Positions 1-7,753 are shown, numbered from the stretch's first letter. The stretch is DNA of 7,753 nucleotides from Candidatus Diapherotrites archaeon CG08_land_8_20_14_0_20_30_16 (GCA_002779075.1 PEXK01000048.1:1-7753), one strand, 5' to 3'. The notes: generated by a model from the letters alone, not told the origin. A program made the numbers and translations.

Positions 1-308
1 CCTGAAGATTCTAAAGAAGCATCTTTTGCTAGACTAGGATAATTATCATACAAATATTGGCCTGTAAAATCAATCTGAGTATTATCAGAAACAAACCAAG
101 GCAAAACAGAACTGCCTACAAGTTCATAACCACCAACTGACTCGACCTGATAATACAAAGCTGTTTCTTTTTCTATTTCTTCATTTTGCATTTCATAACT
201 AAATTTATTTACTGTGACGTTTGGAACGAATTGCATTTTAATATCATTCTTTGATCCCATTTCATTTTTTATAGTATCTGTTACACTCATATTTAATATT
301 GTCCCTCT
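1..308 (-). other. Start of a C-terminal module conserved between the two tandem paralogues (residues 2248-2349+)
   Basis: The giant ORF reads RGTILNMSV...QFVPNVTV...ALYYQVESVGGYELVGSSVLPWFVSDNTQIDFTGQYLYDNYPSLAKDASLESS. The neighbour reads RGTVLDAKL...GFIPDLAI...SLFYEIIYNGESQIAESSLLPWFVSKESYEKTDFTGQKLFDTYPKVAVQSLSEDN. Shared exact DNA words are ggcctgtaaaatca (59..72 and 7515..7528) and agaaacaaacca (87..98 and 7549..7560). Their spacing differs by 6 nt, which is an in-frame 2-codon indel. Confidence 0.8.
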
Positions 309-3300
309 TTCTGATTCTGAATTCATACTTTTGAAATCAATATCTTTGGAAACATTTAAATGCGCTTTAGGATTTGAAGTTGTGTTATAATTTGAAAGCA
401 TTTGATTATTCAAACTAGCTGAATTTATTGTAATTAAATCACTTGTTTCTGTAAAATCTGAACCATATCCTTGTCTGTCTATTGTTCCATTCTCAACACC
501 AACTCTTCCATCAATTGGCAGGTAATAAAATACAGAATCATTAGTTACTGAGGCAATCTTTTTCAAAACAACCATAACAAAAGCATTATTCAAATCAAAA
601 CTTAATTCAGGATAAACTATATTAAAATGAACTTCATAAAGTCCTGAACCATTGGTCTGTTGGTTCTTTGTATATCCGTTATATATTATTATTCTATTAT
701 TATCAAATAAATTATCCAAGAAAGTATCTTTGATTAACTGCCCAACATTATCTGCAAATTCCGTTTCCAAATATGTTTTCTTGAAATCTTTTAAAAAGTC
801 TTGAGAATAGCCATCGTCAGCTAAATATACTTTGTAATGCAATAAATCCTGTATTGCAAATATTTGATTTTTATTATTTTCATTTATGCTTGGCAAGAAA
901 GTAAACAAATTCATTTTACCATCTGATGAAACAAAAGTAGTTGGGGTTTTTGATAAACATTGGCTCTTTAACACTTTTGCAAATAAATTCAAATCAAAAT
1001 CCATTTTCGAAACTATTTTCTCGTTTCCTGATGCATCAAACAAAGTTACAGTAATATTCAAAGTGTTGTCATAAAGTTGATTATAGCCAGAATTCAAATC
1101 TTTGATATCTAAATCCTTAACTAAAGGTATTTCAACATTCAGATATACTAAATTCGTTCCAACATCAATAGGCACCCCCTCTGACCCATAGTTTACTTGT
1201 ACTTTTTTGCCTGAAGAATCTGTTGCATAAACTTTGTATTGTGGAATTGGTTGAGGAGGATTAGAGGAAGTTAAGAAAATACCTAAATTTTTATCTAAAG
1301 TAATAGTCCAATAACCATCCTTAATACCCACATCTATTTTATCAAAGAAATTTGTACTTAAACCAGGATCTTGAAAATAGTTAATTGTTGATTCTTTATC
1401 TACTTTTTTATAATCTGGAATCATCTGGCATTTTATTCCTGAAAACTCACCCAAAAGGCTTTGTGCAAACTTCAATCTTTTCAAACCAGAAATTAATAAC
1501 TGTGTTGAATCACAATATTGTTTCACATTCCCTTCTACATCAGGGCTACAAAAGTTTTCATCAATACTATCGTCCCATTTATATTGTAATTTTGGTTTTG
1601 CATCAGGACCAGTAAAACCAACAACATCACCAGAAACATTAGTACATGCTTGTCCCACTTTGAAAGAAACCTCTTTTTCTGTGATATTGTGGAAAGCAAC
1701 ACGAATATTTCCTAATAAATGACCATCACCCAATACTCCAGAATTTATATCAATAGGATATGTTTTATAACACCATTCGGAATTGCAAGGCTTGCCATTA
1801 TAAAAAGTATTCAAATCCAAATTTGTGAAGGTTGCTTTAAACATACCAGTACCAGGGTAACCGCCAATAATTTCACCTTGATTTGCTCTTCCCCAAAGCT
1901 CTGACTTTAACTTACATGGAACAACAACATAAGTATCCCATTTAATATTATTAAATGAGCCACCACCACATTTTGGATAAAAAGTAACTGTTTTACCACT
2001 ACTTACTGTCGGGTCTTTGTCCCACCAACAATCATCTTCAGACAGGGTCAATTTAGGATCTGACCACAATATATGTTCTGTATCAACAACATAATCTTGA
2101 GAGCAGGTTAAGCTAAATTTTATGCTATCATCCCAATGTTTTGAACCTGTACAAAACCAGCCCTTACAGCCAACATGCCCTTTTATAACTTCTCTAGCAA
2201 TCAAGAATTGATAATGATCTTGGCCAGTTATTTTAAAAATATCACTGTAATTCGCGGTTCCATCTTCCCTTATTTTTATTGTATTTGTAGTTACGTTAAC
2301 ATCAGGATAATTAAGATCATTTAAAATAACAAATTTGTATTCCTGGTCATCATTTAAGTAAGTAGTAAATGCTGCAATAAATATAGTTATTCCAACCAAA
2401 AGAACACCAGCACCAATTAACCAGCCAACAAGTCTTGTAACTACTGCACCAAGAATATCAGTAGAAGATCCATGTCTAACAAGATCATCCAAATCCCCTA
2501 AATATATTTGGGAGTTTTTATTTTTTATTTGCAAAAGATTAACAAAATTGTTCACATCTGCAATAAAAAGAGAGCTTGGAATATTTGTATTGTAAACTAA
2601 CAATGTGTCTGAAAACAGCTTATTATTTAACTCATTATTTGTTTGGACGTGTGTATCCAAAAAAGGATTTTCAGAAAAAAGACCATTACTGTACGATGTT
2701 TGAACATTAACAGGCAAAATCTTAATCCTCTTATAGGACAGGTCTTTTAGTTGTTTAGCAAATATTTCTAATGCGTAAGCACCTGATACTTGAGGTCTTG
2801 ATATTTCTAATTCATTTTCCTTAGATGATAAAACAAATCCCTTATATAGGCTTGCATTATCAAATTTAAAGCCAGTATATTCATTACCTACATTCTCACC
2901 ACAACCAATTGGTATCTCCTTGTCATTTGCTTTGCAAATCATTATGTCTAGAGTTATTCCTTCACAAATATTTTTGAAAGTTAATTTAAATTTATCTTGA
3001 GGCAAAGCATAAGTTAGTGAACTATCAGGAGTATACTGCCCTAAAGACAAGACTAAAGTCTCTGTTATTTCTTTTCCTTTATCATCAAATACTTTCAAAC
3101 AATCTTCCAAATGCAAAACACTTACATCAAACTTCAATTCTTTTGATTCTACTTTCTTCAAGCCATCAGAAGTATTTACAAATGCAAAAATCTTTGCTTT
3201 CAAATGTTCCCTTCCAAAAATTCCTTTTGGAACAAAAGAAACAGCCCCTAAAAAGGGATTGTCCAGGTCTGCTTTCCAGTTTACTGCAAATATCTCTGGT

Positions 3301-6300
3301 ACTGATAATTTTAAGTTTGTGGTACCAGTTGAAAGACTAAATGAAAAACTGCCAATACCTAAAGAACCTGAATCATGTAGCAAAACTAAATAAGCAGAAT
3401 CAAAAACAACAGGATAAGGTTCTGAATATCCTTTACTGCTTGATTGAACAACACAAGTATTCAAAACAGATAAAGGAATTGTAATAGGTTTTACATCTGT
3501 TGCAAAACTTGTACTTTCAGAACCTGTGTTTAATGCAATTTCTAAACAGCCATCATCAGCATTAGTAGGATATCCCTGTGATACTATATTAATTTCAAAA
3601 GGAATTAATCTATTTATTGTCTCATCTTGAGTTCTAAATGTTACTTTGACAGCTCCAGAAAATTTAATTCCTTTTCCAATCTCAGCACTAATGTTATCAT
3701 TCAAAACTGCTTTAAAGAAGTCTTCCAATTCTAATTTAGCAATACCCGGCAGAGCGCCAACAGAATCATAATTCAATTGTATTCCTTGGATTTCTTTGTT
3801 TACGTATGTATTTGATAGATATGCTTTCATTACATCAATATTCAAAAAATTCTGCAAATTTAATGAATAATTATCAACTTGTAAATCTACGCTTTCTATT
3901 TTCAGTGTGGATGCACTATTATTTGTAATTATTAAACTGTCATAACCTTCTTTGTCTGTTGGATAAATCAAATCAATACTTAACTTTTCTTTATCAAACC
4001 CCAATATTTTGGTTGTTACTTGCAAATCCGGAGTAAAATCTTTTTGAGAATAAGATTCATAACCTTCTTTCTCAACTAATATCTGTACCAAAGTCCCAGG
4101 CGGCAAAGATGGAAGTAAACAGTCTGCTTTTCCTTGCAAATCTGTTTTTATATTTCTACAATCCCCTAAAACAAAATATGTTGTATCTGTTGGTTTCTTT
4201 ATTTTAACAGTAACAAGAGCGTCTTTTACAAAAGAATTTGTATCATCACTTACTGAAATACTTAAATTCTGTTGAATCCCGGGTGCCAATATTTTCTCGG
4301 GGAATACAGTCAAATTCAATTTTTTTGTTGTTGTTGATTTAAACAAAACAGATAATGCAGACTTATTATTTATTACCATTTTTTTATCATTATCTAAAAC
4401 AACAAAATTCAAAAAAGACTCCCCTAAAATAACTGGTTGCAAGCCTAATTGTCCAGAAATATATCTGTTCTTTATGTAATCTTTTATTTGATAACCCTTT
4501 ACAAATACACCAAAACTTTCCACCAAAGATTCAGATTTATTATCTGTTGGGCCTTTCAAATTATAATTCAAAAGTCTAATAAAAGAATGACTAGAAACAT
4601 CATTTTCAACAAAGGAAAGGGTTTCTTTTTGAGATTGTGCATTGAATATCTGCAGTGTGCCATTTTTTATAGTATTATCAGGACCACTTAAATTATTTGT
4701 CAAATCAAATGCAAACTCGTATTTTGTGTTTGGAGAAACTAAAAATTGGTCTTTTCCTTGTGATTCTAAATACAAATTAGTACTTTTATTAAGAAGAGTA
4801 TATCTTGAACAAAAATCATTATCTGTGCAAACACCAGATGCTCCTGCTAAAAATTCTTTTATTTCTGATGCAACACTTATATCATCAATTAACAAATCCC
4901 AACTAATCTTCAAAGAATCAAGAATTTTTACTGAACCATCATTCTTTACTTTCACTTTATAATATACATTATAAACTCCTGGATTTGTTTCATTCCAAAA
5001 TGATGAAATTATTTTTGCTTTGCCTATGGTGTTTTGTTCCATTTTGGAATCCAAATATTTTAAATCATAATTTGCAGAAGTATATGCATCTATTAATGAA
5101 AGTTTTTCAGCATCCAAATTTTGGTCATCGCCAACATTTAATTTGAATTCAAAAGGTTTTGATTCATACATATAAATCTTGAAACCTAAATAATAAATCC
5201 CGCCAATATTCAAACTAGGTTCTTCTGCACCTTCGAAATCACTAAAAATACCCAAGAAATCTACTTTTGGTTCTGCTTGTGTTAAAGGAACCATTGAAAC
5301 AGTGCTTTGCCAATTATAATTAGTCATTAACAAACGGGACTCACTGTAATAAGGTAGATAATTATCTGCTTTAACAATATAGTATAAGGAGGTGCCGGCT
5401 TTGAAAGAATGGGTTGTTTCGCCAGATGCGCTCAAAATCTTGCTTCCAGATTCTGTTAATGGTTTTTTATAAAATGTAACTAAAGCATTACTTTTTGGAT
5501 TATTTGATTCATCTGTTACTTTCAATTTCAACATAGAATAGCCTACAGGTAAAACTATATTGACATCTAATTCAGGAATTTTATCTGATTCTGCACCACT
5601 TAAAACAACAGTATTACTATATGCTTCATTAAAACCATTATATACTCTAAATTGATAGCTTCCAATTTGTAAAAGTGATGTTGACAAACCATTTTTATCT
5701 GTTGCAGGAAAGTTATCCAAAGATAATAATTCAAACTGTGTTGCAGGATCAATAACAAATACTTTTGCACCTTCTATAGGTAGATTGTCTTCATCCAACA
5801 CTTTAACATTAACTTTGACACTGTTATACAAAGTCTTTGTTTTTAGTGTGAAGATTTTTTCATTAAAAGAAGAATTAATTTGAATTTCATTATTTGCTAA
5901 AGCAAAAACTGAGTTTGAATCTGGTTCAAAATCCAAAAAATAATTATCTAATTTTGATACAGGAATACTTATTGCTCCATTCGATGTTGTGCCTTTGAAA
6001 ACTATTTTGCCTGTATTGTCTTTTAGCACTGAGTTCCCATTTATGTGCACATTGTTTTCATCAACAAAAGACAGAGAAACTATTTTTGCAAAAGTGTTCT
6101 CCAATGTAAAAACAATATTATTTACTTTATTTTCACTTGTTTTTATTTGTTGTGATGTATCCAAATAATCTTCTTTGGAAGCATAAACAATATAATTCCC
6201 AACAGGAAGATTTGTAAATAATTTTGTATTTCCAAAATCATTAGTTGTATCTTTATCTATTTCTTCTTTTTGGTTTTGAGCATCAAAGATACTTACTTTA

Positions 6301-7049
6301 GCACCAGAAACTGGCATAGCATTTACATCATAAACAGTTACTTTTATACTTCCTGCTGGCAAAGATGTTTGATTTTCTAAAACCTGTGTAATTAACCCTA
6401 AAGTAACAACACAAGATGTTGAATCACATGTCTCGCCAGACAATACTTTGTACCCATCTATTTGAACACTTATTCCTAAAATACCACAATTTTCAGGAAC
6501 ATTTATTGTTGTTGAACCAGAAGAAACATTTCTTTCTTTTTGAGCATCACCCAATTCTGTTGAGTCACAATTAAAACTTATATGTGCTGTTTTTGTTATT
6601 GTAATTCCTGATTCATCAAACAAAAAGATTGTTGTTGGCAGCATTTTGTAAATTCTATTCAAAGAAACATTAATAGTATCTGAGAAATCATATTCTGATT
6701 TTGAAATTGCATATTTCTTTATTGATATTGATTCAAGCGAAAGTTTATCGCTAACAGGCAATTCTAAAATAGCTTTTCCTTTTATTGCTTTCCCATCAAA
6801 TGTATTTCCATTTACATTTACACTGAAATCAAAACTCTCCACTAATTGGATGTTGTCTGATTTGAAAATAAATGTAACTTGTTCCTTTGAAGGAATTAAC
6901 AACCAAACAACCAAGCCTATAATTAATAAAATAACAACACATAATACAATCTTCAAAACTAGGCTAGATTTGATCTTCTCAACAAAGGACTTAAAAAAAG
7001 TCTTTGTTTGCTCAAAACTGTAGCTTTGTTTGTTATCTTCTAAAGGCAT
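1..7049 (-). CDS. Giant membrane-anchored, repeat-containing surface/adhesin-like protein; at least 2349 aa, 3' end cut by the window edge; absent from the supplied ORF track
   Basis: Manual translation of the reverse complement from ATG 7049..7047 gives 2349 sense codons plus 2 leftover nt (7049 = 3 x 2349 + 2). No TAA, TAG or TGA occurs in frame. The nearest upstream in-frame stop is TAA at 7094..7092, with no canonical start between it and the ATG. Residue numbering was checked against TGG codons at 5310..5312 (W580), 3276..3278 (W1258) and 2133..2135 (W1639). In DNA this AT-rich, an open frame of this length cannot be chance. The translation begins MPLEDNKQSYSFEQTKTFFKSFVEKIKSSLVLKIVLCVVILLIIGLVVWLLIPSKEQ. 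The product name is inferred from architecture only. Confidence 0.9.
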   Translation of the reverse strand, partial: MPLEDNKQSYSFEQTKTFFKSFVEKIKSSLVLKIVLCVVILLIIGLVVWLLIPSKEQVTFIFKSDNIQLVESFDFSVNVNGNTFDGKAIKGKAILELPVSDKLSLESISIKKYAISKSEYDFSDTINVSLNRIYKMLPTTIFLFDESGITITKTAHISFNCDSTELGDAQKERNVSSGSTTINVPENCGILGISVQIDGYKVLSGETCDSTSCVVTLGLITQVLENQTSLPAGSIKVTVYDVNAMPVSGAKVSIFDAQNQKEEIDKDTTNDFGNTKLFTNLPVGNYIVYASKEDYLDTSQQIKTSENKVNNIVFTLENTFAKIVSLSFVDENNVHINGNSVLKDNTGKIVFKGTTSNGAISIPVSKLDNYFLDFEPDSNSVFALANNEIQINSSFNEKIFTLKTKTLYNSVKVNVKVLDEDNLPIEGAKVFVIDPATQFELLSLDNFPATDKNGLSTSLLQIGSYQFRVYNGFNEAYSNTVVLSGAESDKIPELDVNIVLPVGYSMLKLKVTDESNNPKSNALVTFYKKPLTESGSKILSASGETTHSFKAGTSLYYIVKADNYLPYYSESRLLMTNYNWQSTVSMVPLTQAEPKVDFLGIFSDFEGAEEPSLNIGGIYYLGFKIYMYESKPFEFKLNVGDDQNLDAEKLSLIDAYTSANYDLKYLDSKMEQNTIGKAKIISSFWNETNPGVYNVYYKVKVKNDGSVKILDSLKISWDLLIDDISVASEIKEFLAGASGVCTDNDFCSRYTLLNKSTNLYLESQGKDQFLVSPNTKYEFAFDLTNNLSGPDNTIKNGTLQIFNAQSQKETLSFVENDVSSHSFIRLLNYNLKGPTDNKSESLVESFGVFVKGYQIKDYIKNRYISGQLGLQPVILGESFLNFVVLDNDKKMVINNKSALSVLFKSTTTKKLNLTVFPEKILAPGIQQNLSISVSDDTNSFVKDALVTVKIKKPTDTTYFVLGDCRNIKTDLQGKADCLLPSLPPGTLVQILVEKEGYESYSQKDFTPDLQVTTKILGFDKEKLSIDLIYPTDKEGYDSLIITNNSASTLKIESVDLQVDNYSLNLQNFLNIDVMKAYLSNTYVNKEIQGIQLNYDSVGALPGIAKLELEDFFKAVLNDNISAEIGKGIKFSGAVKVTFRTQDETINRLIPFEINIVSQGYPTNADDGCLEIALNTGSESTSFATDVKPITIPLSVLNTCVVQSSSKGYSEPYPVVFDSAYLVLLHDSGSLGIGSFSFSLSTGTTNLKLSVPEIFAVNWKADLDNPFLGAVSFVPKGIFGREHLKAKIFAFVNTSDGLKKVESKELKFDVSVLHLEDCLKVFDDKGKEITETLVLSLGQYTPDSSLTYALPQDKFKLTFKNICEGITLDIMICKANDKEIPIGCGENVGNEYTGFKFDNASLYKGFVLSSKENELEISRPQVSGAYALEIFAKQLKDLSYKRIKILPVNVQTSYSNGLFSENPFLDTHVQTNNELNNKLFSDTLLVYNTNIPSSLFIADVNNFVNLLQIKNKNSQIYLGDLDDLVRHGSSTDILGAVVTRLVGWLIGAGVLLVGITIFIAAFTTYLNDDQEYKFVILNDLNYPDVNVTTNTIKIREDGTANYSDIFKITGQDHYQFLIAREVIKGHVGCKGWFCTGSKHWDDSIKFSLTCSQDYVVDTEHILWSDPKLTLSEDDCWWDKDPTVSSGKTVTFYPKCGGGSFNNIKWDTYVVVPCKLKSELWGRANQGEIIGGYPGTGMFKATFTNLDLNTFYNGKPCNSEWCYKTYPIDINSGVLGDGHLLGNIRVAFHNITEKEVSFKVGQACTNVSGDVVGFTGPDAKPKLQYKWDDSIDENFCSPDVEGNVKQYCDSTQLLISGLKRLKFAQSLLGEFSGIKCQMIPDYKKVDKESTINYFQDPGLSTNFFDKIDVGIKDGYWTITLDKNLGIFLTSSNPPQPIPQYKVYATDSSGKKVQVNYGSEGVPIDVGTNLVYLNVEIPLVKDLDIKDLNSGYNQLYDNTLNITVTLFDASGNEKIVSKMDFDLNLFAKVLKSQCLSKTPTTFVSSDGKMNLFTFLPSINENNKNQIFAIQDLLHYKVYLADDGYSQDFLKDFKKTYLETEFADNVGQLIKDTFLDNLFDNNRIIIYNGYTKNQQTNGSGLYEVHFNIVYPELSFDLNNAFVMVVLKKIASVTNDSVFYYLPIDGRVGVENGTIDRQGYGSDFTETSDLITINSASLNNQMLSNYNTTSNPKAHLNVSKDIDFKSMNSESERGTILNMSVTDTIKNEMGSKNDIKMQFVPNVTVNKFSYEMQNEEIEKETALYYQVESVGGYELVGSSVLPWFVSDNTQIDFTGQYLYDNYPSLAKDASLESS
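1428..2168 (-). other. Cys/Trp-rich module (residues 1628-1874) with a recurring K-x-W-D-[DT]...C motif; no family recognised
   Basis: There are 12 Cys (1628, 1633, 1649, 1674, 1694, 1712, 1755, 1760, 1802, 1834, 1846, 1874) and 9 Trp (1631-1825) in about 250 aa. The ~1490 aa between the two helices hold only 4 Trp. Motif copies are SKHWDDSIKFSLTC, NIKWDTYVVVPC and QYKWDDSIDENFC. Two C-x4-C pairs occur (CKGWFC, CNSEWC). Confidence 0.6.
2364..2432 (-). other. Internal hydrophobic, transmembrane-like helix (residues 1540-1562) splitting the giant protein into ~1490-aa and >785-aa parts
   Basis: The segment LVGWLIGAGVLLVGITIFIAAFT is 23 uncharged residues. It is flanked by ...DILGAVVTR on the N side and YLNDDQEYK on the C side. 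The Y1564 codon at 2358..2360 is in frame. Confidence 0.7.
4020..4319 (-). other. Fifth, isolated carboxypeptidase-regulatory-like / PEGA-like repeat (residues 911-1010)
   Basis: The segment reads LNLTVFPEKILAPGIQQNLSISVSDDTNSFVKDALVTVKIKKPTDTTYFVLGDCRNIKTDLQGKADCLLPSLPPGTLVQILVEKEGYESY. The ending V-E-K-E-G-Y-E resembles the PEGA signature. An inserted Cys pair is present (C964/C977). Confidence 0.5.
5283..6350 (-). other. Four consecutive carboxypeptidase-regulatory-like / PEGA-like beta-sandwich repeats (residues 234-317, 322-405, 411-500, 505-589)
   Basis: Units of about 85 aa recur with the family pattern: alternating hydrophobic strand, D-x-N-x-P-[VI]-x-G-A-x-V, T-[DN]-x-x-G, G-x-Y, then Y. 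Examples are SIKVTVYDVNAMPVSGAKVSIFD...GNYIVYASKEDY and VKVNVKVLDEDNLPIEGAKVFVID...TDKNGLSTSLLQIGSYQFRVY. Others are KLKVTDESNNPKSNALVTFY...YYIVKADNYLPY and VSLSFVDENNVHINGNSVLKDNTGKIVFKGTTSNGAISIP. The nt boundaries are 6099..6350, 5835..6086, 5550..5819 and 5283..5537. Assignment is by eye, not by HMM. Confidence 0.6.
6894..6962 (-). other. N-terminal transmembrane signal-anchor helix (residues ~30-52) of the giant protein
   Basis: The segment LVLKIVLCVVILLIIGLVVWLLI is 23 mostly hydrophobic residues with one Lys near its N-terminal end. It follows a Lys-rich 29-aa tail (KTFFKSFVEKIKSS) and is followed by PSKEQ. No obvious AxA signal-peptidase site was seen. Confidence 0.75.
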
Positions 7050-7060
7050 AATACCACGAG

Positions 7061-7080
7061 TGTTCTTTCCTGTTCTTTCC
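7061..7080. repeat. Perfect 2 x 10-bp tandem direct repeat (tgttctttcc tgttctttcc; minus strand GGAAAGAACA x2) 12 nt upstream of the giant ORF start
   Basis: Read directly from the sequence. Positions 7061..7070 and 7071..7080 are identical. The repeat lies between the TATA-like element (7081..7088) and the ATG at 7049. Confidence 0.9.
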
Positions 7081-7110
7081 TTTATAAATATTTAATAGTC
7101 TTTTATATAT
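7081..7110 (-). promoter_or_regulatory. Candidate promoter for the giant ORF: palindromic TATA-like octamer tttataaa (7081..7088) plus a second AT-rich box (minus strand ATATATAAAA, 7110..7101)
   Basis: The minus strand reads ...ATATATAAAAGACTATTAAATATTTATAAAGGAAAGAACAGGAAAGAACACTCGTGGTATTATG. TTTATAAA resembles the archaeal TATA consensus (TTTAWATA-like). It is centred about 35 nt before the ATG, which would imply a leader of only ~8-10 nt. No convincing bacterial -35 (TTGACA-like) sits 17 bp upstream of a -10. No strong GGAGG lies 5-10 nt before the ATG. The call is speculative without transcript data. Confidence 0.3.
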
Positions 7111-7132
7111 TTAACTATTATTACACTAAACA

Positions 7133-7146
7133 GCATAATTTTATGC
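7133..7146 (-). terminator. Small perfect palindrome gcataattttatgc downstream of the upstream gene's stop; weak hairpin-terminator candidate
   Basis: The GCATAA/TTATGC arms are separated by 2 nt, giving in practice a ~5-bp stem with a 4-nt loop. The palindrome begins 34 nt after the TAG at 7182..7180. On the minus strand it is followed by TGTTTAG, which is only a short T run. The stem is AT-rich and short, so predicted stability is low. Confidence 0.2.
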
Positions 7147-7179
7147 GTTGGAAGTCACTTTTTGGGGTTATGTACACTA

Positions 7180-7753
7180 CTAATGAGGTTCATTAACAAA
7201 TACTCTTGTGCTTAACTCGTTTCCTGAAATACAAAGCAAATTAGAATCTATACCCTCTAAGACACTATTGAGATTTTCTATACCAAACTCTTTAGTATTA
7301 TTTATCTTTATGTTTGGATTTTCTAAATTAACTGTCTTTACATCTTCTATTAGAACAGAAGCATTGCTTGGAGCATAAATATAAGAATAAATGTTATAAT
7401 CTGCTAAATCTGTTACAGCTTCTTTAGTGTATTCTATTTTTGATGCTTTATTTGACACATTATCTTCAGATAATGATTGAACTGCAACTTTAGGATAGGT
7501 ATCAAAGAGTTTCTGGCCTGTAAAATCAGTTTTTTCATAGCTTTCTTTAGAAACAAACCAGGGTAAAAGGGAGCTTTCTGCAATCTGTGATTCTCCATTA
7601 TATATTATTTCATAGAAAAGACTTACAGGAGAATCTATTTGCTTGTTTTTCATTTTTGCTTCTGCTTTCCAAATTGCTAAATCAGGGATAAACCCAATAG
7701 AAATGATATTAGTGGGTGCTTTAGACAATTTAGCATCTAAAACAGTGCCTCTT
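7180..7753 (-). CDS. C-terminal 190 codons plus stop of an upstream paralogue of the giant protein; 5' end cut by the window edge
   Basis: This is track ORF 7180..7728, but position 7728 is a TTG. The frame stays open upstream to the edge (RGTVLDAK precedes it), so the listed start is an artefact. The stop is TAG at 7182..7180. The product aligns with the giant ORF tail: RGT[IV]L, then LPWFVS, DFTGQ-L-D-YP. Confidence 0.85.
   Translation of the reverse strand, partial: RGTVLDAKLSKAPTNIISIGFIPDLAIWKAEAKMKNKQIDSPVSLFYEIIYNGESQIAESSLLPWFVSKESYEKTDFTGQKLFDTYPKVAVQSLSEDNVSNKASKIEYTKEAVTDLADYNIYSYIYAPSNASVLIEDVKTVNLENPNIKINNTKEFGIENLNSVLEGIDSNLLCISGNELSTRVFVNEPH

What the first reader, a model, noticed from the sequence alone, without database searches (positions are those of the whole stretch)
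1..7049. A gene of more than 7 kb is hidden from the ORF track: one open minus-strand frame fills 91% of the window
The track shows only short plus-strand ORFs across 1..7049. The reverse complement, however, translates without a stop from ATG 7049 to the window edge: 2349 codons with protein-like, domain-structured sequence. The listed plus-strand ORFs in this span are antisense shadows. By comparison with the neighbour's C-terminus, the gene should continue about 90 codons beyond position 1, for a total of roughly 2440 aa. A single protein this large, with no enzymatic motif I can recognise, is the dominant and least explained object in the window.
Basis: seen in the sequence. Interest (0 to 1): 0.8.

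Follow-up and report, generated by a model that had tools for sequence, protein, structure and literature searches.

The report
Giant DPANN archaeal surface protein gene
The window really does hold one 7-kb gene, for a roughly 2,440-residue membrane-anchored surface protein; it belongs to an uncharacterised family found almost only in the tiny Iainarchaeota/Micrarchaeota (DPANN) archaea, where such genes sit in tandem and, in many related genomes, are followed by a conserved set of small membrane-protein genes.

Summary
Observation confirmed. The minus strand is open from ATG 7049 to the window edge: 2349 codons with no stop, chance about 2e-92. The ORF lister omits it only because it runs off the edge.

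Anatomy:
- an N-terminal signal-anchor helix;
- about 1480 aa of Ig-like/CarboxypepD_reg beta-sandwich domains;
- a Gly-rich hydrophobic segment;
- a Cys-rich stretch;
- a conserved C-terminal module with no Pfam, NCBIfam, PDB or viral-fold match.

Cysteines are conserved and lost in pairs on both sides of the hydrophobic segment, which argues that both halves are extracellular.

An exhaustive HMMER search found 359 family clusters, mostly 2300-2700 aa. Every named member is from Diapherotrites/Iainarchaeota, Micrarchaeota or an unclassified archaeon.

The genes lie in tandem arrays of 2-3 paralogs; the window itself shows the end of an upstream paralog. In many genomes the array is followed by four or five small multi-pass membrane-protein genes and, less often, a HerA-like protein without a Walker A motif.

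Best reading: one subunit of a lineage-specific cell-envelope module for cell-to-cell contact. Function is inferred, not shown. The literature has only a passing mention.

The parts
3..7049 (-). Coding sequence of the giant protein. Its 5' end is complete and its 3' end is cut by the window edge: 2349 of about 2443 codons.
   Evidence: Open frame. P0001 is 99.6% identical and 2443 aa long. First start codon after the in-frame stop at 7092-7094.
6960..7049 (-). N-terminal cytoplasmic tail, aa 1-30, Lys-rich. It is a degenerate version of the family's conserved tail motif (...YY.LEDKWY..LD...IPVY.IIDPIDKxxPSF).
   Evidence: Sequence. Family N-termini and a loose regex matching 55 of 85 members. 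A3/A5 consensus 'IDKxxPS'.
6894..6959 (-). Signal-anchor transmembrane helix, aa 31-52. A 30-residue n-region is too long for a typical cleaved Sec signal, so an N-in/C-out anchor is inferred.
   Evidence: Kyte-Doolittle peak of 3.55. An N-terminal hydrophobic helix is present in about 83 of 85 full-length members.
2457..6893 (-). Ectodomain 1, aa 53-1531: a chain of beta-sandwich (Ig-like, transthyretin-like, CarboxypepD_reg) domains with conserved Cys pairs.
   Evidence: Pfam CarboxypepD_reg, 64.8 bits, 2 stretches. Profile hits to NOMO2 and transthyretin-like chains. AF2 model of aa 560-1566 is nearly all-beta, pLDDT 78.7. Foldseek hits are to multi-Ig/MG proteins only. Cys pair patterns.
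6099..6350 (-). Best-scoring CarboxypepD_reg (PF13620) domain, aa 234-317.
   Evidence: E 9.5e-18, 64.8 bits against a cut-off of 32.3.
2355..2456 (-). Uncharged Gly-rich hydrophobic segment, aa 1532-1565 (ILGAVVTRLVGWLIGAGVLLVGITIFIAAFTTYL). It is probably a helical hairpin or re-entrant element.
   Evidence: Hydropathy. The equivalent Gly/Ala/Ser/Thr-rich uncharged stretch of 20-150 aa lies upstream of the YCD motif in nearly all members. AF2 draws two short helices at low confidence. Two family members hit the C19orf12-like model PF20721; I did not check which part of those proteins matches.
1665..2354 (-). Cys/Trp-rich region, aa 1566-1795. It varies across the family and is poorly modelled.
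   Evidence: Cys positions. pLDDT below 50 over most of model residues 1-230. Low alignment occupancy.
3..1664 (-). Conserved C-terminal module, aa 1796-2349; about 94 further residues lie beyond the window. Signature motifs: GFTG..AKPK...W / YCDSTQ (nt 1500-1517), DGYSxDFLxDF (nt 783-815) and FYYLPIDGRVG...RQGYG (nt 462-530).
   Evidence: Conservation peaks at aa 1801-1850, 2051-2100 and 2151-2200. Invariant columns. AF2 pLDDT mostly 80-95 over model residues 230-878. No PDB or BFVD fold match at E<=1e-3. No Pfam or PDB sequence match.
7050..7179 (-). Intergenic region and putative promoter. It holds an archaeal TATA-like TTTATAAA at 7080-7087, about 31-38 nt upstream of the ATG, and a perfect 9-mer direct repeat GGAAAGAAC x2 (10-nt period) at 7061-7081.
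   Evidence: Sequence. TRF row 7061-7081, period 10, 100% matches. No sigma-70 excess and no terminator. The promoter role is inferred.
7180..7752 (-). C-terminal 190 codons plus stop of an upstream tandem paralog of the same subfamily.
   Evidence: Translation. 34% identity to the C-terminus of P0001 over 194 aa, E 5e-33. Most likely recovered as the 190-aa fragment P0008 in the family search, not checked directly.

Best explanation
The window encodes most of a roughly 2443-aa surface protein of a DPANN archaeon. The organism is most likely Iainarchaeota/Diapherotrites-like, with about 30% GC.

Shown:
- It is a real gene and a member of a large, length-conserved family (about 2300-2700 aa).
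- It is homologous to that family over its whole length.
- It starts with one N-terminal signal-anchor helix.
- About 1480 aa of beta-sandwich domains follow.
- Next come a Gly-rich uncharged hydrophobic segment and a conserved C-terminal module of unknown fold class.
- Cysteines are conserved and lost strictly in pairs on both sides of the hydrophobic segment.
- Family genes lie in tandem arrays of 2-3 paralogs with conserved positions (g1, g2). In many genomes the array is followed by four or five orthologous small multi-pass membrane-protein genes. Less often a coiled-coil protein and a HerA/DUF87-like protein without a Walker A motif follow as well.

Inferred:
- The protein is anchored N-in/C-out, and both large parts are extracellular and disulfide-bonded.
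- The Ig-like chain acts as a stalk or scaffold that presents the C-terminal module. Its invariant residues are mostly Asp, Asn, Arg, Gln, Tyr, Trp and Phe, with no conserved Glu/His catalytic set. That fits a binding head (glycan or protein) better than an enzyme.
- Together with its paralogs and the small membrane proteins, it forms a lineage-specific cell-envelope module for contact with other cells or surfaces.

The confidence of 0.6 is for the whole statement. 'Real gene, family member, surface-anchored' is about 0.9; 'cell-contact function' is about 0.5.
For: Gene reality.

Family and size conservation: 359 clusters at E<=1e-3 and 265 at <=1e-10. 85 full-length representatives of 1949-3100 aa. 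Whole-length alignment with invariant Cys and motifs.

Taxonomy:
- All named members are Diapherotrites, Micrarchaeota or 'archaeon'.
- A YCDATQF DNA-pattern scan of GTDB representative genomes gave 120 loci. Of these, 100 encode the module, and 99 of those carry archaeal titles. They include the complete genomes CP010424.1 (AR10, 3 copies) and CP064981.1, and Ca. Iainarchaeum andersonii.
- Archaeal neighbours were seen: NOG1 GTPase, thermosome, ribosomal protein S8e, PolB.

Topology:
- N-terminal helix in about 83 of 85 members.
- Pairwise Cys patterns, for example (208,213), (964,977), (1372,1383) and (1674,1694,1712).
- The 1628/1633 pair is present in P0001 and, with one exception at 1633, absent from the rest of the 24-sequence alignment.
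- The central hydrophobic stretch passes the hydropathy threshold in only about half of the members, although the C-terminal module is conserved in all. This favours an even number of membrane crossings, or none.

Architecture: Pfam and PDB profile hits are to beta-sandwiches only. AF2 models. Foldseek.

Synteny:
- Tandem arrays.
- Orthologous g1/g2 positions.
- Small proteins orthologous one-for-one.
- At least 3 of the 4 small-protein families are present in 25 loci, one of them a duplicate, and the HerA-like protein in 12.

Against: - No experiment or expression data bears on function.
- The C-terminal module has no recognisable relative, so 'binding head' rests only on residue types.
- Predicted N-glycosylation sequons are not clearly enriched: 17 observed against 19.3+/-3.8 expected in the N-part, and 17 against 11.5+/-3.1 in the C-part.
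- The hairpin prediction is low-confidence. A single-span reading, with a cytoplasmic C-terminal part, is not formally excluded for this protein.
- From general knowledge, some Iainarchaeota such as AR10 have comparatively complete metabolisms and may not be obligate episymbionts. That weakens 'host attachment' relative to a general envelope role.
- Linkage to the small membrane-protein genes cannot be seen in this window. It is absent from the sequenced parts of the closest loci L001, L004 and L006, which end inside or just after the array.
Confidence: 0.6

Rival explanations
1. It is a structural envelope component rather than a contact protein. On this reading the protein is a scaffold or spacer of fixed length that spans the space between membrane and S-layer, or forms a second surface lattice. 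The paralogs would be hetero-oligomeric subunits, and the small membrane proteins would be their membrane base.
For: Protein length is strikingly conserved across 85 divergent representatives. Paralog positions are conserved. Short 'mini' members of 802-843 aa carry only an N-terminal helix, a Gly-rich region and the C-terminal module, which places that module at the cell's own membrane. The family is near-universal in Iainarchaeum-titled genomes, including ones that may be free-living. The Haloferax S-layer protein is among the generic Foldseek hits.
Against: The known Micrarchaeota S-layer protein is a different 101-kDa PF05123 protein. No S-layer domain is detected here. The Foldseek similarity is generic, with TM-scores of 0.1-0.2.
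Confidence: 0.25
2. It is the outer arm of a trans-envelope conduit. On this reading the Gly-rich hydrophobic segment, carried at the far end of the Ig-like stalk, inserts into a partner cell's membrane as a pore or fusion element. The giants would work together with the five small membrane proteins and the HerA-like protein as a transfer apparatus.
For: A glycine-rich uncharged hydrophobic stretch is conserved in character, though not in sequence, just upstream of the C-terminal module in nearly all members and in the mini members. Two members hit C19orf12-like PF20721; the matching region was not checked. There is conserved linkage to small multi-pass membrane proteins and to a DUF87/HerA-like protein. 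The nanohaloarchaeal giant proteins linked to VirB4-like ATPases offer an analogy (PMC10266531).
Against: None of the 12 HerA-like proteins has a Walker A motif, so no energising ATPase is evident. The DUF87 hit is marginal: 24.3 bits against a cut-off of 23.2. No fold match to any pore-forming or fusion protein was found in PDB or BFVD. The hydrophobic segment is weak or short in about half of the members. L005 has the small genes but no HerA-like gene nearby.
Confidence: 0.12
3. It is an alpha-2-macroglobulin-like protease trap anchored to the membrane.
For: Foldseek lists A2M, A2ML1, complement C5 and the E. coli alpha-2-macroglobulin ECAM among the top hits for the middle region. Relatives carry faint precomputed bMG3/MG4 Pfam hits.
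Against: A thioester motif C[GLA]EQ is present in 0 of 85 members. The models show no alpha-helical thioester domain; the segment is nearly all-beta. TM-scores of 0.1-0.2 show only repeated beta-sandwich similarity.
Confidence: 0.02
4. It is not a genuine gene: an assembly chimera, a frameshift-corrected artefact, or a gene of a mobile element or virus.
For: None found. The window is short and read mapping was not possible.
Against: P about 2e-92 for the open frame. A near-identical independent contig exists. Homologues are collinear over the full length. There are no matches in phage records, IMG/VR or PHROGs. Family members sit in the chromosomes of complete archaeal genomes.
Confidence: 0.01

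Closest known systems
The 'large (>1,800 aa) membrane-anchored proteins' clustered in a 42-kb region of the Diapherotrite Ca. Forterrea multitransposorum (Probst & Banfield 2018, PMC5905446)
   Same: Same lineage, same size class, membrane-anchored and tandemly clustered. The window protein's best full-length relative, P0005/P0152 (PIU22524.1), is annotated as a Candidatus Diapherotrites archaeon.
   Different: That paper gives one sentence and a cartoon. It has no domain analysis, no family definition and no mention of the C-terminal module, the Gly-rich segment or the linked small membrane-protein genes. I could not check sequence identity with the Forterrea proteins themselves.
SPEARE / giant membrane-anchored extracellular proteins of Nanohaloarchaeota (Hamm et al. 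2019; La Cono et al. 2023, PMC10266531)
   Same: These are also DPANN proteins: giant, cell-bound, rich in Ig-like domains, proposed to mediate host interaction, and adjacent to a HerA/VirB4-superfamily gene.
   Different: As PMC10266531 describes them, the two nanohaloarchaeal examples are 8,880 and 9,409 aa, begin with a Sec signal peptide and contain a VirB4/TraG-like ATPase domain. The window protein is about 2,440 aa, has an N-terminal signal anchor and shows no ATPase domain. No sequence relationship between the two families turned up in any search here.
Multi-Ig-domain bacterial surface adhesins and NOMO-type CarboxypepD_reg arrays (e.g. PrgB Ig-like domains 8beg; NOMO2 9c7v)
   Same: Strings of transthyretin-like/Ig-like beta-sandwich domains form an extended extracellular stalk.
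   Different: There is no LPXTG, RGD or Ca-repeat motif. The domains are not near-identical repeats: self-BLAST finds none and there are no DNA tandem repeats. The C-terminal module is unrelated.
Ced/Ted and type IV-like DNA or effector transfer systems of archaea (small membrane proteins plus a HerA/VirB4-like ATPase)
   Same: This resemblance is recalled from general knowledge of those systems, not tested here. The cluster composition is similar: several small multi-pass membrane proteins next to a HerA-superfamily protein.
   Different: The HerA-like protein lacks a Walker A motif in 12 of 12 cases. The small proteins match no known family. Giant surface proteins are not part of Ced/Ted. 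This is a resemblance only.

Membership tests
Unnamed Iainarchaeota/Micrarchaeota giant membrane-anchored protein family (defined here by profiles A3/A4) | Whole-length homology and a length of about 2300-2700 aa | tested here: met
   P0001 is 2443 aa. It aligns end to end with 23 members at 18-43% identity and is the top hit of the family profile.
Unnamed Iainarchaeota/Micrarchaeota giant membrane-anchored protein family (defined here by profiles A3/A4) | Single N-terminal signal-anchor helix | tested here: met
   aa 31-52; present in about 83 of 85 members.
Unnamed Iainarchaeota/Micrarchaeota giant membrane-anchored protein family (defined here by profiles A3/A4) | Invariant cysteine pairs (161/188, 741/747, 1168/1199, 1317/1362, 1802, 1846, 2031/2424) | tested here: met
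   All are present in the window protein or P0001. Cys2424 lies beyond the window edge and is seen only in P0001.
Unnamed Iainarchaeota/Micrarchaeota giant membrane-anchored protein family (defined here by profiles A3/A4) | Gly-rich uncharged hydrophobic stretch 200-350 aa upstream of YCD[AS]TQ | tested here: met
   aa 1532-1565, about 280 aa upstream of YCDSTQ at 1845.
Unnamed Iainarchaeota/Micrarchaeota giant membrane-anchored protein family (defined here by profiles A3/A4) | C-terminal module motifs YCD[AS]TQ, DGYSxDFxxDF and FYYxPxDGxVG...RQGYG | tested here: met
   Present at aa 1845, 2079 and 2174.
Unnamed Iainarchaeota/Micrarchaeota giant membrane-anchored protein family (defined here by profiles A3/A4) | Tandem arrangement with paralogs | tested here: met
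   The C-terminus of an upstream paralog lies at 7180-7752.
Unnamed Iainarchaeota/Micrarchaeota giant membrane-anchored protein family (defined here by profiles A3/A4) | Array followed by the sA-sD small membrane-protein genes | not testable with these tools
   The downstream side lies beyond window position 1, and the source contig could not be retrieved. The g1 ortholog in L005 has this linkage.
CarboxypepD_reg domain (PF13620) | Score above Pfam's gathering threshold | tested here: met
   64.8 bits against 32.3, at aa 234-317 plus a second stretch.
Alpha-2-macroglobulin / complement C3 family | Thioester motif CxEQ within a helical thioester domain | tested here: not met
   No C[GLA]EQ in any of 85 members. 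No helical domain of that size in either model.
Nanohaloarchaeal SPEARE giant proteins | Embedded VirB4/TraG-like ATPase domain; several-thousand-residue size | tested here: not met
   No ATPase domain by Pfam or NCBIfam; 2443 aa.
Archaeal S-layer proteins (PF05123-type, as in Ca. Micrarchaeum harzensis SLP_Mh) | S-layer N-terminal domain | tested here: not met
   No such hit. SLP_Mh is a distinct 101-kDa protein.
Ced/T4SS-like transfer systems (considered for the wider gene cluster) | Active HerA/VirB4 ATPase with a Walker A motif | tested here: not met
   None of 12 linked HerA-like proteins has G....GK[ST]. The DUF87 hit is marginal.

The most novel reading that the evidence does not exclude
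The tandem giants, the five small multi-pass membrane proteins, the coiled-coil protein and the HerA-like protein without a Walker A motif together form a previously undescribed cell-envelope apparatus. It would be specific to Iainarchaeota and Micrarchaeota. In this reading the Ig-like stalk carries the Gly-rich segment and the orphan C-terminal module to a partner cell, where the segment inserts into the partner's membrane. That would make it a candidate for the still-unidentified molecular basis of DPANN-host intercellular bridges.
Probability: 0.12. Interest if true: 0.9.

Novelty: new variant of a known kind. Interest (0 to 1): 0.55.

Why it matters
DPANN archaea are thought to live by physical contact with other cells, yet the proteins that make that contact are unknown outside a few cultured pairs. 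This family takes up roughly 1-2% of a ~1-Mb genome per array. It is conserved in length and in paralog order across many species-level Iainarchaeota and Micrarchaeota genomes. It also carries a large conserved module with no known relative. The linked, equally conserved small membrane-protein genes point to a multi-subunit envelope machine rather than a lone adhesin. That gives a concrete, testable candidate locus for proteomics, cryo-ET and multimer modelling in the cultured Micrarchaeota systems, and a marker motif (YCDATQF) for finding it in metagenomes. The window on its own adds one more member of the family, not a new principle.

Tried and rejected
1. Word-indexed homology search with the whole protein found only P0001 and P0002. 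With the 24-sequence full-length profile it was swamped by unrelated CarboxypepD_reg repeat proteins. With the C-terminal profile A4 it returned nothing, not even the query; I treat that as a tool failure. The exhaustive HMMER search is what revealed the family.
2. Pattern-based locus searches with A1 found nothing in genome, metagenome or viral contigs. A hand-made YCDATQF DNA pattern worked.
3. The source contig of P0001 is not on record, so the gene's 3' end and its downstream neighbours could not be read.
4. There was no match in phage records, PHROGs, Rfam or tRNA scans.
5. PDB searches by sequence or profile gave only beta-sandwich hits for the N-terminal half and nothing credible for the C-terminal half.
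7. Self-BLAST and TRF found no internal sequence repeats.
8. Alignments of 71 or more full-length members failed.
9. Rejected readings: alpha-2-macroglobulin (no thioester), S-layer protein, SPEARE membership (no ATPase domain) and a viral or mobile origin.
10. The small membrane proteins and the 326-aa upstream gene gave no informative link. The upstream gene is an MBL/beta-CASP nuclease and appears unrelated.

Full report
**1. The observation**

Translating the reverse complement of 1-7049 gives 2349 codons without a stop. The DNA is about 30% G+C. At this composition 8.6% of random codons are stops, so the chance of such a run is about 2e-92; the other five frames carry 110-275 stops. ATG 7049 is the first possible start after the in-frame stop at 7092-7094. 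The ORF tool lists only six short plus-strand ORFs in this span, because it drops ORFs that run off an end. The 'hidden gene' is therefore an artefact of the track, not of the sequence.

**2. Full length and integrity**

The protein database holds P0001, 2443 aa, from a 12,972-bp JGI contig. It differs from the window protein at 9 of 2349 residues and continues 94 residues past the window edge. The upstream gene fragment (7180-7752) is a paralog: 34% identity over 194 aa to the C-terminus of P0001, E 5e-33. Full-length collinear homologues of 2413-2472 aa exist on independent contigs. A chimeric or frameshift-repaired assembly is therefore very unlikely. Read mapping was not possible.

**3. 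Anatomy**

- **N-terminus.** A 30-residue Lys-rich tail is followed by one strongly hydrophobic helix, aa 31-52. An n-region that long is atypical of a cleaved signal peptide, so I read it as an N-in/C-out signal anchor (inference).
- **aa 53-1531.** Pfam finds only CarboxypepD_reg (64.8 bits, two stretches) and weaker Ig-like models at aa 233-319. A family profile hits only beta-sandwich chains in the PDB, such as NOMO2 and transthyretin-like proteins. An AlphaFold2 model of aa 560-1566 (37-sequence alignment, mean pLDDT 78.7, pTM 0.46) is almost entirely beta, organised as about nine beta-sandwich domains. Foldseek matches multi-Ig/MG-domain proteins: hydin-like ciliary proteins, PrgB, the alpha-2-macroglobulin/complement family and the Haloferax S-layer protein. 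TM-scores are only 0.1-0.2, so this is generic 'beads on a string' similarity. The domains are not near-identical repeats.
- **aa 1532-1565.** This is an uncharged Gly-rich hydrophobic stretch. AF2 draws it as two short helices at low confidence.
- **aa 1566-1795.** This region is rich in Cys and Trp, varies across the family and is poorly modelled.
- **aa 1796-2443.** This is the most conserved part. Its signature motifs are GFTG..AKPK...W...YCDSTQ, DGYSxDFLxDF and FYYLPIDGRVG...RQGYG, plus a C-terminal KLCIS...VFVNE. The AF2 model (40 sequences) has pLDDT mostly 80-95 here and shows mixed beta-sandwich and helical subdomains. It has no Foldseek match at E<=1e-3 in PDB or BFVD. It has no Pfam, NCBIfam or PDB sequence match.

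**4. Topology**

Cysteines come in pairs that are conserved or lost together across 24 divergent members. Examples are (161,188), (208,213), (741,747), (964,977), (1168,1199), (1317,1362), (1372,1383) and (1674,1694,1712). The 1628/1633 pair is present in P0001 and, apart from one sequence with a Cys at 1633, absent from the rest of the alignment. This is the signature of disulfides, and it appears on both sides of the central hydrophobic segment.

About half of the family does not pass a transmembrane-type hydropathy threshold at that position, yet keeps the C-terminal module. Both observations favour a hairpin, re-entrant or non-spanning segment with both large parts outside the cell. A single-span topology for this particular protein is not strictly excluded.

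**5. The family**

An exhaustive HMMER search with the C-terminal profile found 359 cluster representatives (E<=1e-3), 265 of them at E<=1e-10. Most are 2300-2700 aa, with the match at their C-terminal end. Of the 85 full-length representatives, about 83 have the N-terminal helix. Homology runs the whole length.

Every named member is 'Candidatus Diapherotrites', 'Candidatus Micrarchaeota' or 'archaeon', annotated as hypothetical or 'carboxypeptidase-like regulatory domain-containing'.

Of these, 100 encode the C-terminal module (hmmsearch E<=1e-5). Ninety-nine of the 100 carry archaeal titles, mostly 'Candidatus Iainarchaeum archaeon'. They include the complete genomes CP010424.1 (AR10, three copies) and CP064981.1, and Ca. 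Iainarchaeum andersonii SCGC AAA011-E11. The twenty bacterial-titled loci without the module are chance pattern matches. One 'Chloroflexi' bin does carry the module and is probably mis-binned.

Neighbouring genes are archaeal: NOG1-type GTPase, thermosome, ribosomal protein S8e, PolB. The closest relative of the window protein is the g1 protein of a Diapherotrites MAG, P0005/P0152.

**6. Genomic organisation**

Family genes lie in tandem arrays (aa per gene):

| Locus | Giants |
|---|---|
| L001 | 2413 / 2150 / 1092 |
| L002 | 2467 / 2457 / 2454 |
| P0007 contig | 2472 / 2192 / >=2018 |
| L005 | 2436 / 2227 |
| L007 | 2936 / 2370 / 2426 |
| L004, L006 | 2417-2453, then a cut g2 |

. Best-hit analysis shows orthologous positions. 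The window protein groups with the g1 proteins of L001, L004, L005 and L006, and the g2 proteins group together.

In L002, L005, L007 and AR10 (L071) the array is followed by small multi-pass membrane proteins of 81-145 aa. They are orthologous one-for-one and in the same order, at 25-39% identity. HMMs for four of them find at least three of the four in 25 loci, one of which duplicates another.

In AR10 and L007 the small genes are followed by a coiled-coil protein of about 200 aa and a protein of about 500 aa (38% identical between the two). The latter makes a marginal DUF87/HerA hit, and a canonical Walker A motif is absent in 12 of 12 homologues.

'Mini' members of 802-843 aa (L004, L006) consist of an N-terminal helix, a long Gly-rich region and the C-terminal module only.

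Most members also share a conserved cytoplasmic N-terminal peptide...YY.LEDKWY..LD...IPVY.IIDPIDKxxPSF, just before the helix. It is degenerate in the window protein.

**7. What it most likely does**

*Shown:* it is a membrane-anchored, multi-Ig-domain, Cys-paired protein. It belongs to a lineage-specific family and sits in a conserved multi-gene locus.

*Inferred:* it is surface-exposed. The beta-sandwich chain acts as a stalk or scaffold. The C-terminal module is a binding head: its invariant residues are Asp, Asn, Arg, Gln, Tyr, Trp, Phe, Gly and Pro, with no conserved Glu/His set. With its paralogs and the small membrane proteins it forms an envelope module for contact with other cells or surfaces. 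[quoted passage not shown]

*Rivals:*
- A purely structural envelope scaffold. The conserved length, the mini members and presence in possibly free-living Iainarchaeota favour it.
- A membrane-inserting conduit. The Gly-rich segment and the cluster composition favour it. The missing Walker A motif in the HerA-like protein and the lack of any pore or fusogen fold argue against it.
- An alpha-2-macroglobulin-like trap. This is rejected: no thioester in 0 of 85 members and no helical thioester domain.

**8. Comparison with known systems**

- It works like large multi-Ig surface proteins or adhesins.
- It is not a member of the SPEARE giants of Nanohaloarchaeota. The examples described in PMC10266531 are 8,880 and 9,409 aa and contain a VirB4-like ATPase domain.
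- It is not a member of the Micrarchaeota S-layer protein family, which is a 101-kDa PF05123 protein.
- It is not a member of the alpha-2-macroglobulins.
- The resemblance of the wider cluster to Ced/T4SS-like systems is only compositional.

**9. Verdict**

The object is a real, very large gene and is not an orphan. It is one member of an uncharacterised family, previously noticed only in passing, that marks Iainarchaeota and Micrarchaeota.

What is new here is the family definition, the structurally orphan C-terminal module, the conserved Gly-rich segment, and the linked genes for small membrane proteins and a HerA-like protein. I rate it a new variant of a known kind (giant DPANN surface proteins), of moderate interest. 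It carries a low-probability but high-value reading as part of an unknown cell-contact apparatus.

Noticed in passing
window 7061-7081 (minus strand), between the TATA-like TTTATAAA (7080-7087) and ATG 7049: A perfect direct repeat GGAAAGAAC-A-GGAAAGAAC with a 10-nt period lies in the putative promoter or 5' leader of the giant gene. It could be a regulator binding site or chance. The L001 upstream region shows nothing similar by eye.
   Followed up: partly
window ~2010-2027 (aa 1675-1680) and six other codons: The window protein differs from P0001 at nine residues. Three are clustered in the Cys/Trp-rich region (W1675L, D1679N, P1680L). This is strain-level microdiversity in the most variable part of the protein.
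   Followed up: no
L002 23867-25636; L005 24108-25966; L007 17351-19726; L071 1800-3783: Four or five small multi-pass membrane proteins (81-145 aa) follow the giant array. They have no Pfam or NCBIfam match and are orthologous one-for-one in conserved order. HMMs find at least three of four in 25 loci, including Ca. Iainarchaeum andersonii and AR10.
   Followed up: yes
L071 4537-6027; L007 20371-21912 (and 10 further loci): A conserved protein of about 500 aa lies next to the cluster. It makes a marginal DUF87/HerA hit, but a Walker A motif is absent in all 12 homologues, so it is a possible pseudo-ATPase. It is flanked by coiled-coil proteins of about 160-200 aa on the opposite strand.
   Followed up: partly
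L004 3610-6141; L006 78-2486: 'Mini' family members of 843 and 802 aa consist of an N-terminal helix, a long glycine-zipper-like region (GxxxG-rich) and the conserved C-terminal module, with no Ig-like stalk. The module can therefore stand alone at the membrane.
   Followed up: partly
N-termini of family members (e.g. P0023, P0029, P0034, P0047, P0050): A well-conserved cytoplasmic peptide, MGLKD.YY.LEDKWY..LDK....IPVY.IIDPIDKxxPSF, lies immediately before the signal-anchor helix. It could be a sorting or partner-binding signal. It is degenerate in the window protein.
   Followed up: partly
L001 4497-4939; L006 2552-3331, 6462-7968, 17440-18102: HicAB toxin-antitoxin pairs and an AbiEii gene lie just upstream of the arrays. 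In L006 an ORF6N-domain gene is inserted between g1 and g2, which suggests the locus tolerates mobile or defence insertions.
   Followed up: no
L069 (JAFCCG010000009.1, titled Chloroflexi bacterium): This is the only bacterial-titled locus that encodes the family module. It comes from a bin series with similar names (AB_...) to several Iainarchaeum MAGs, so it is probably a mis-binned archaeal contig.
   Followed up: no
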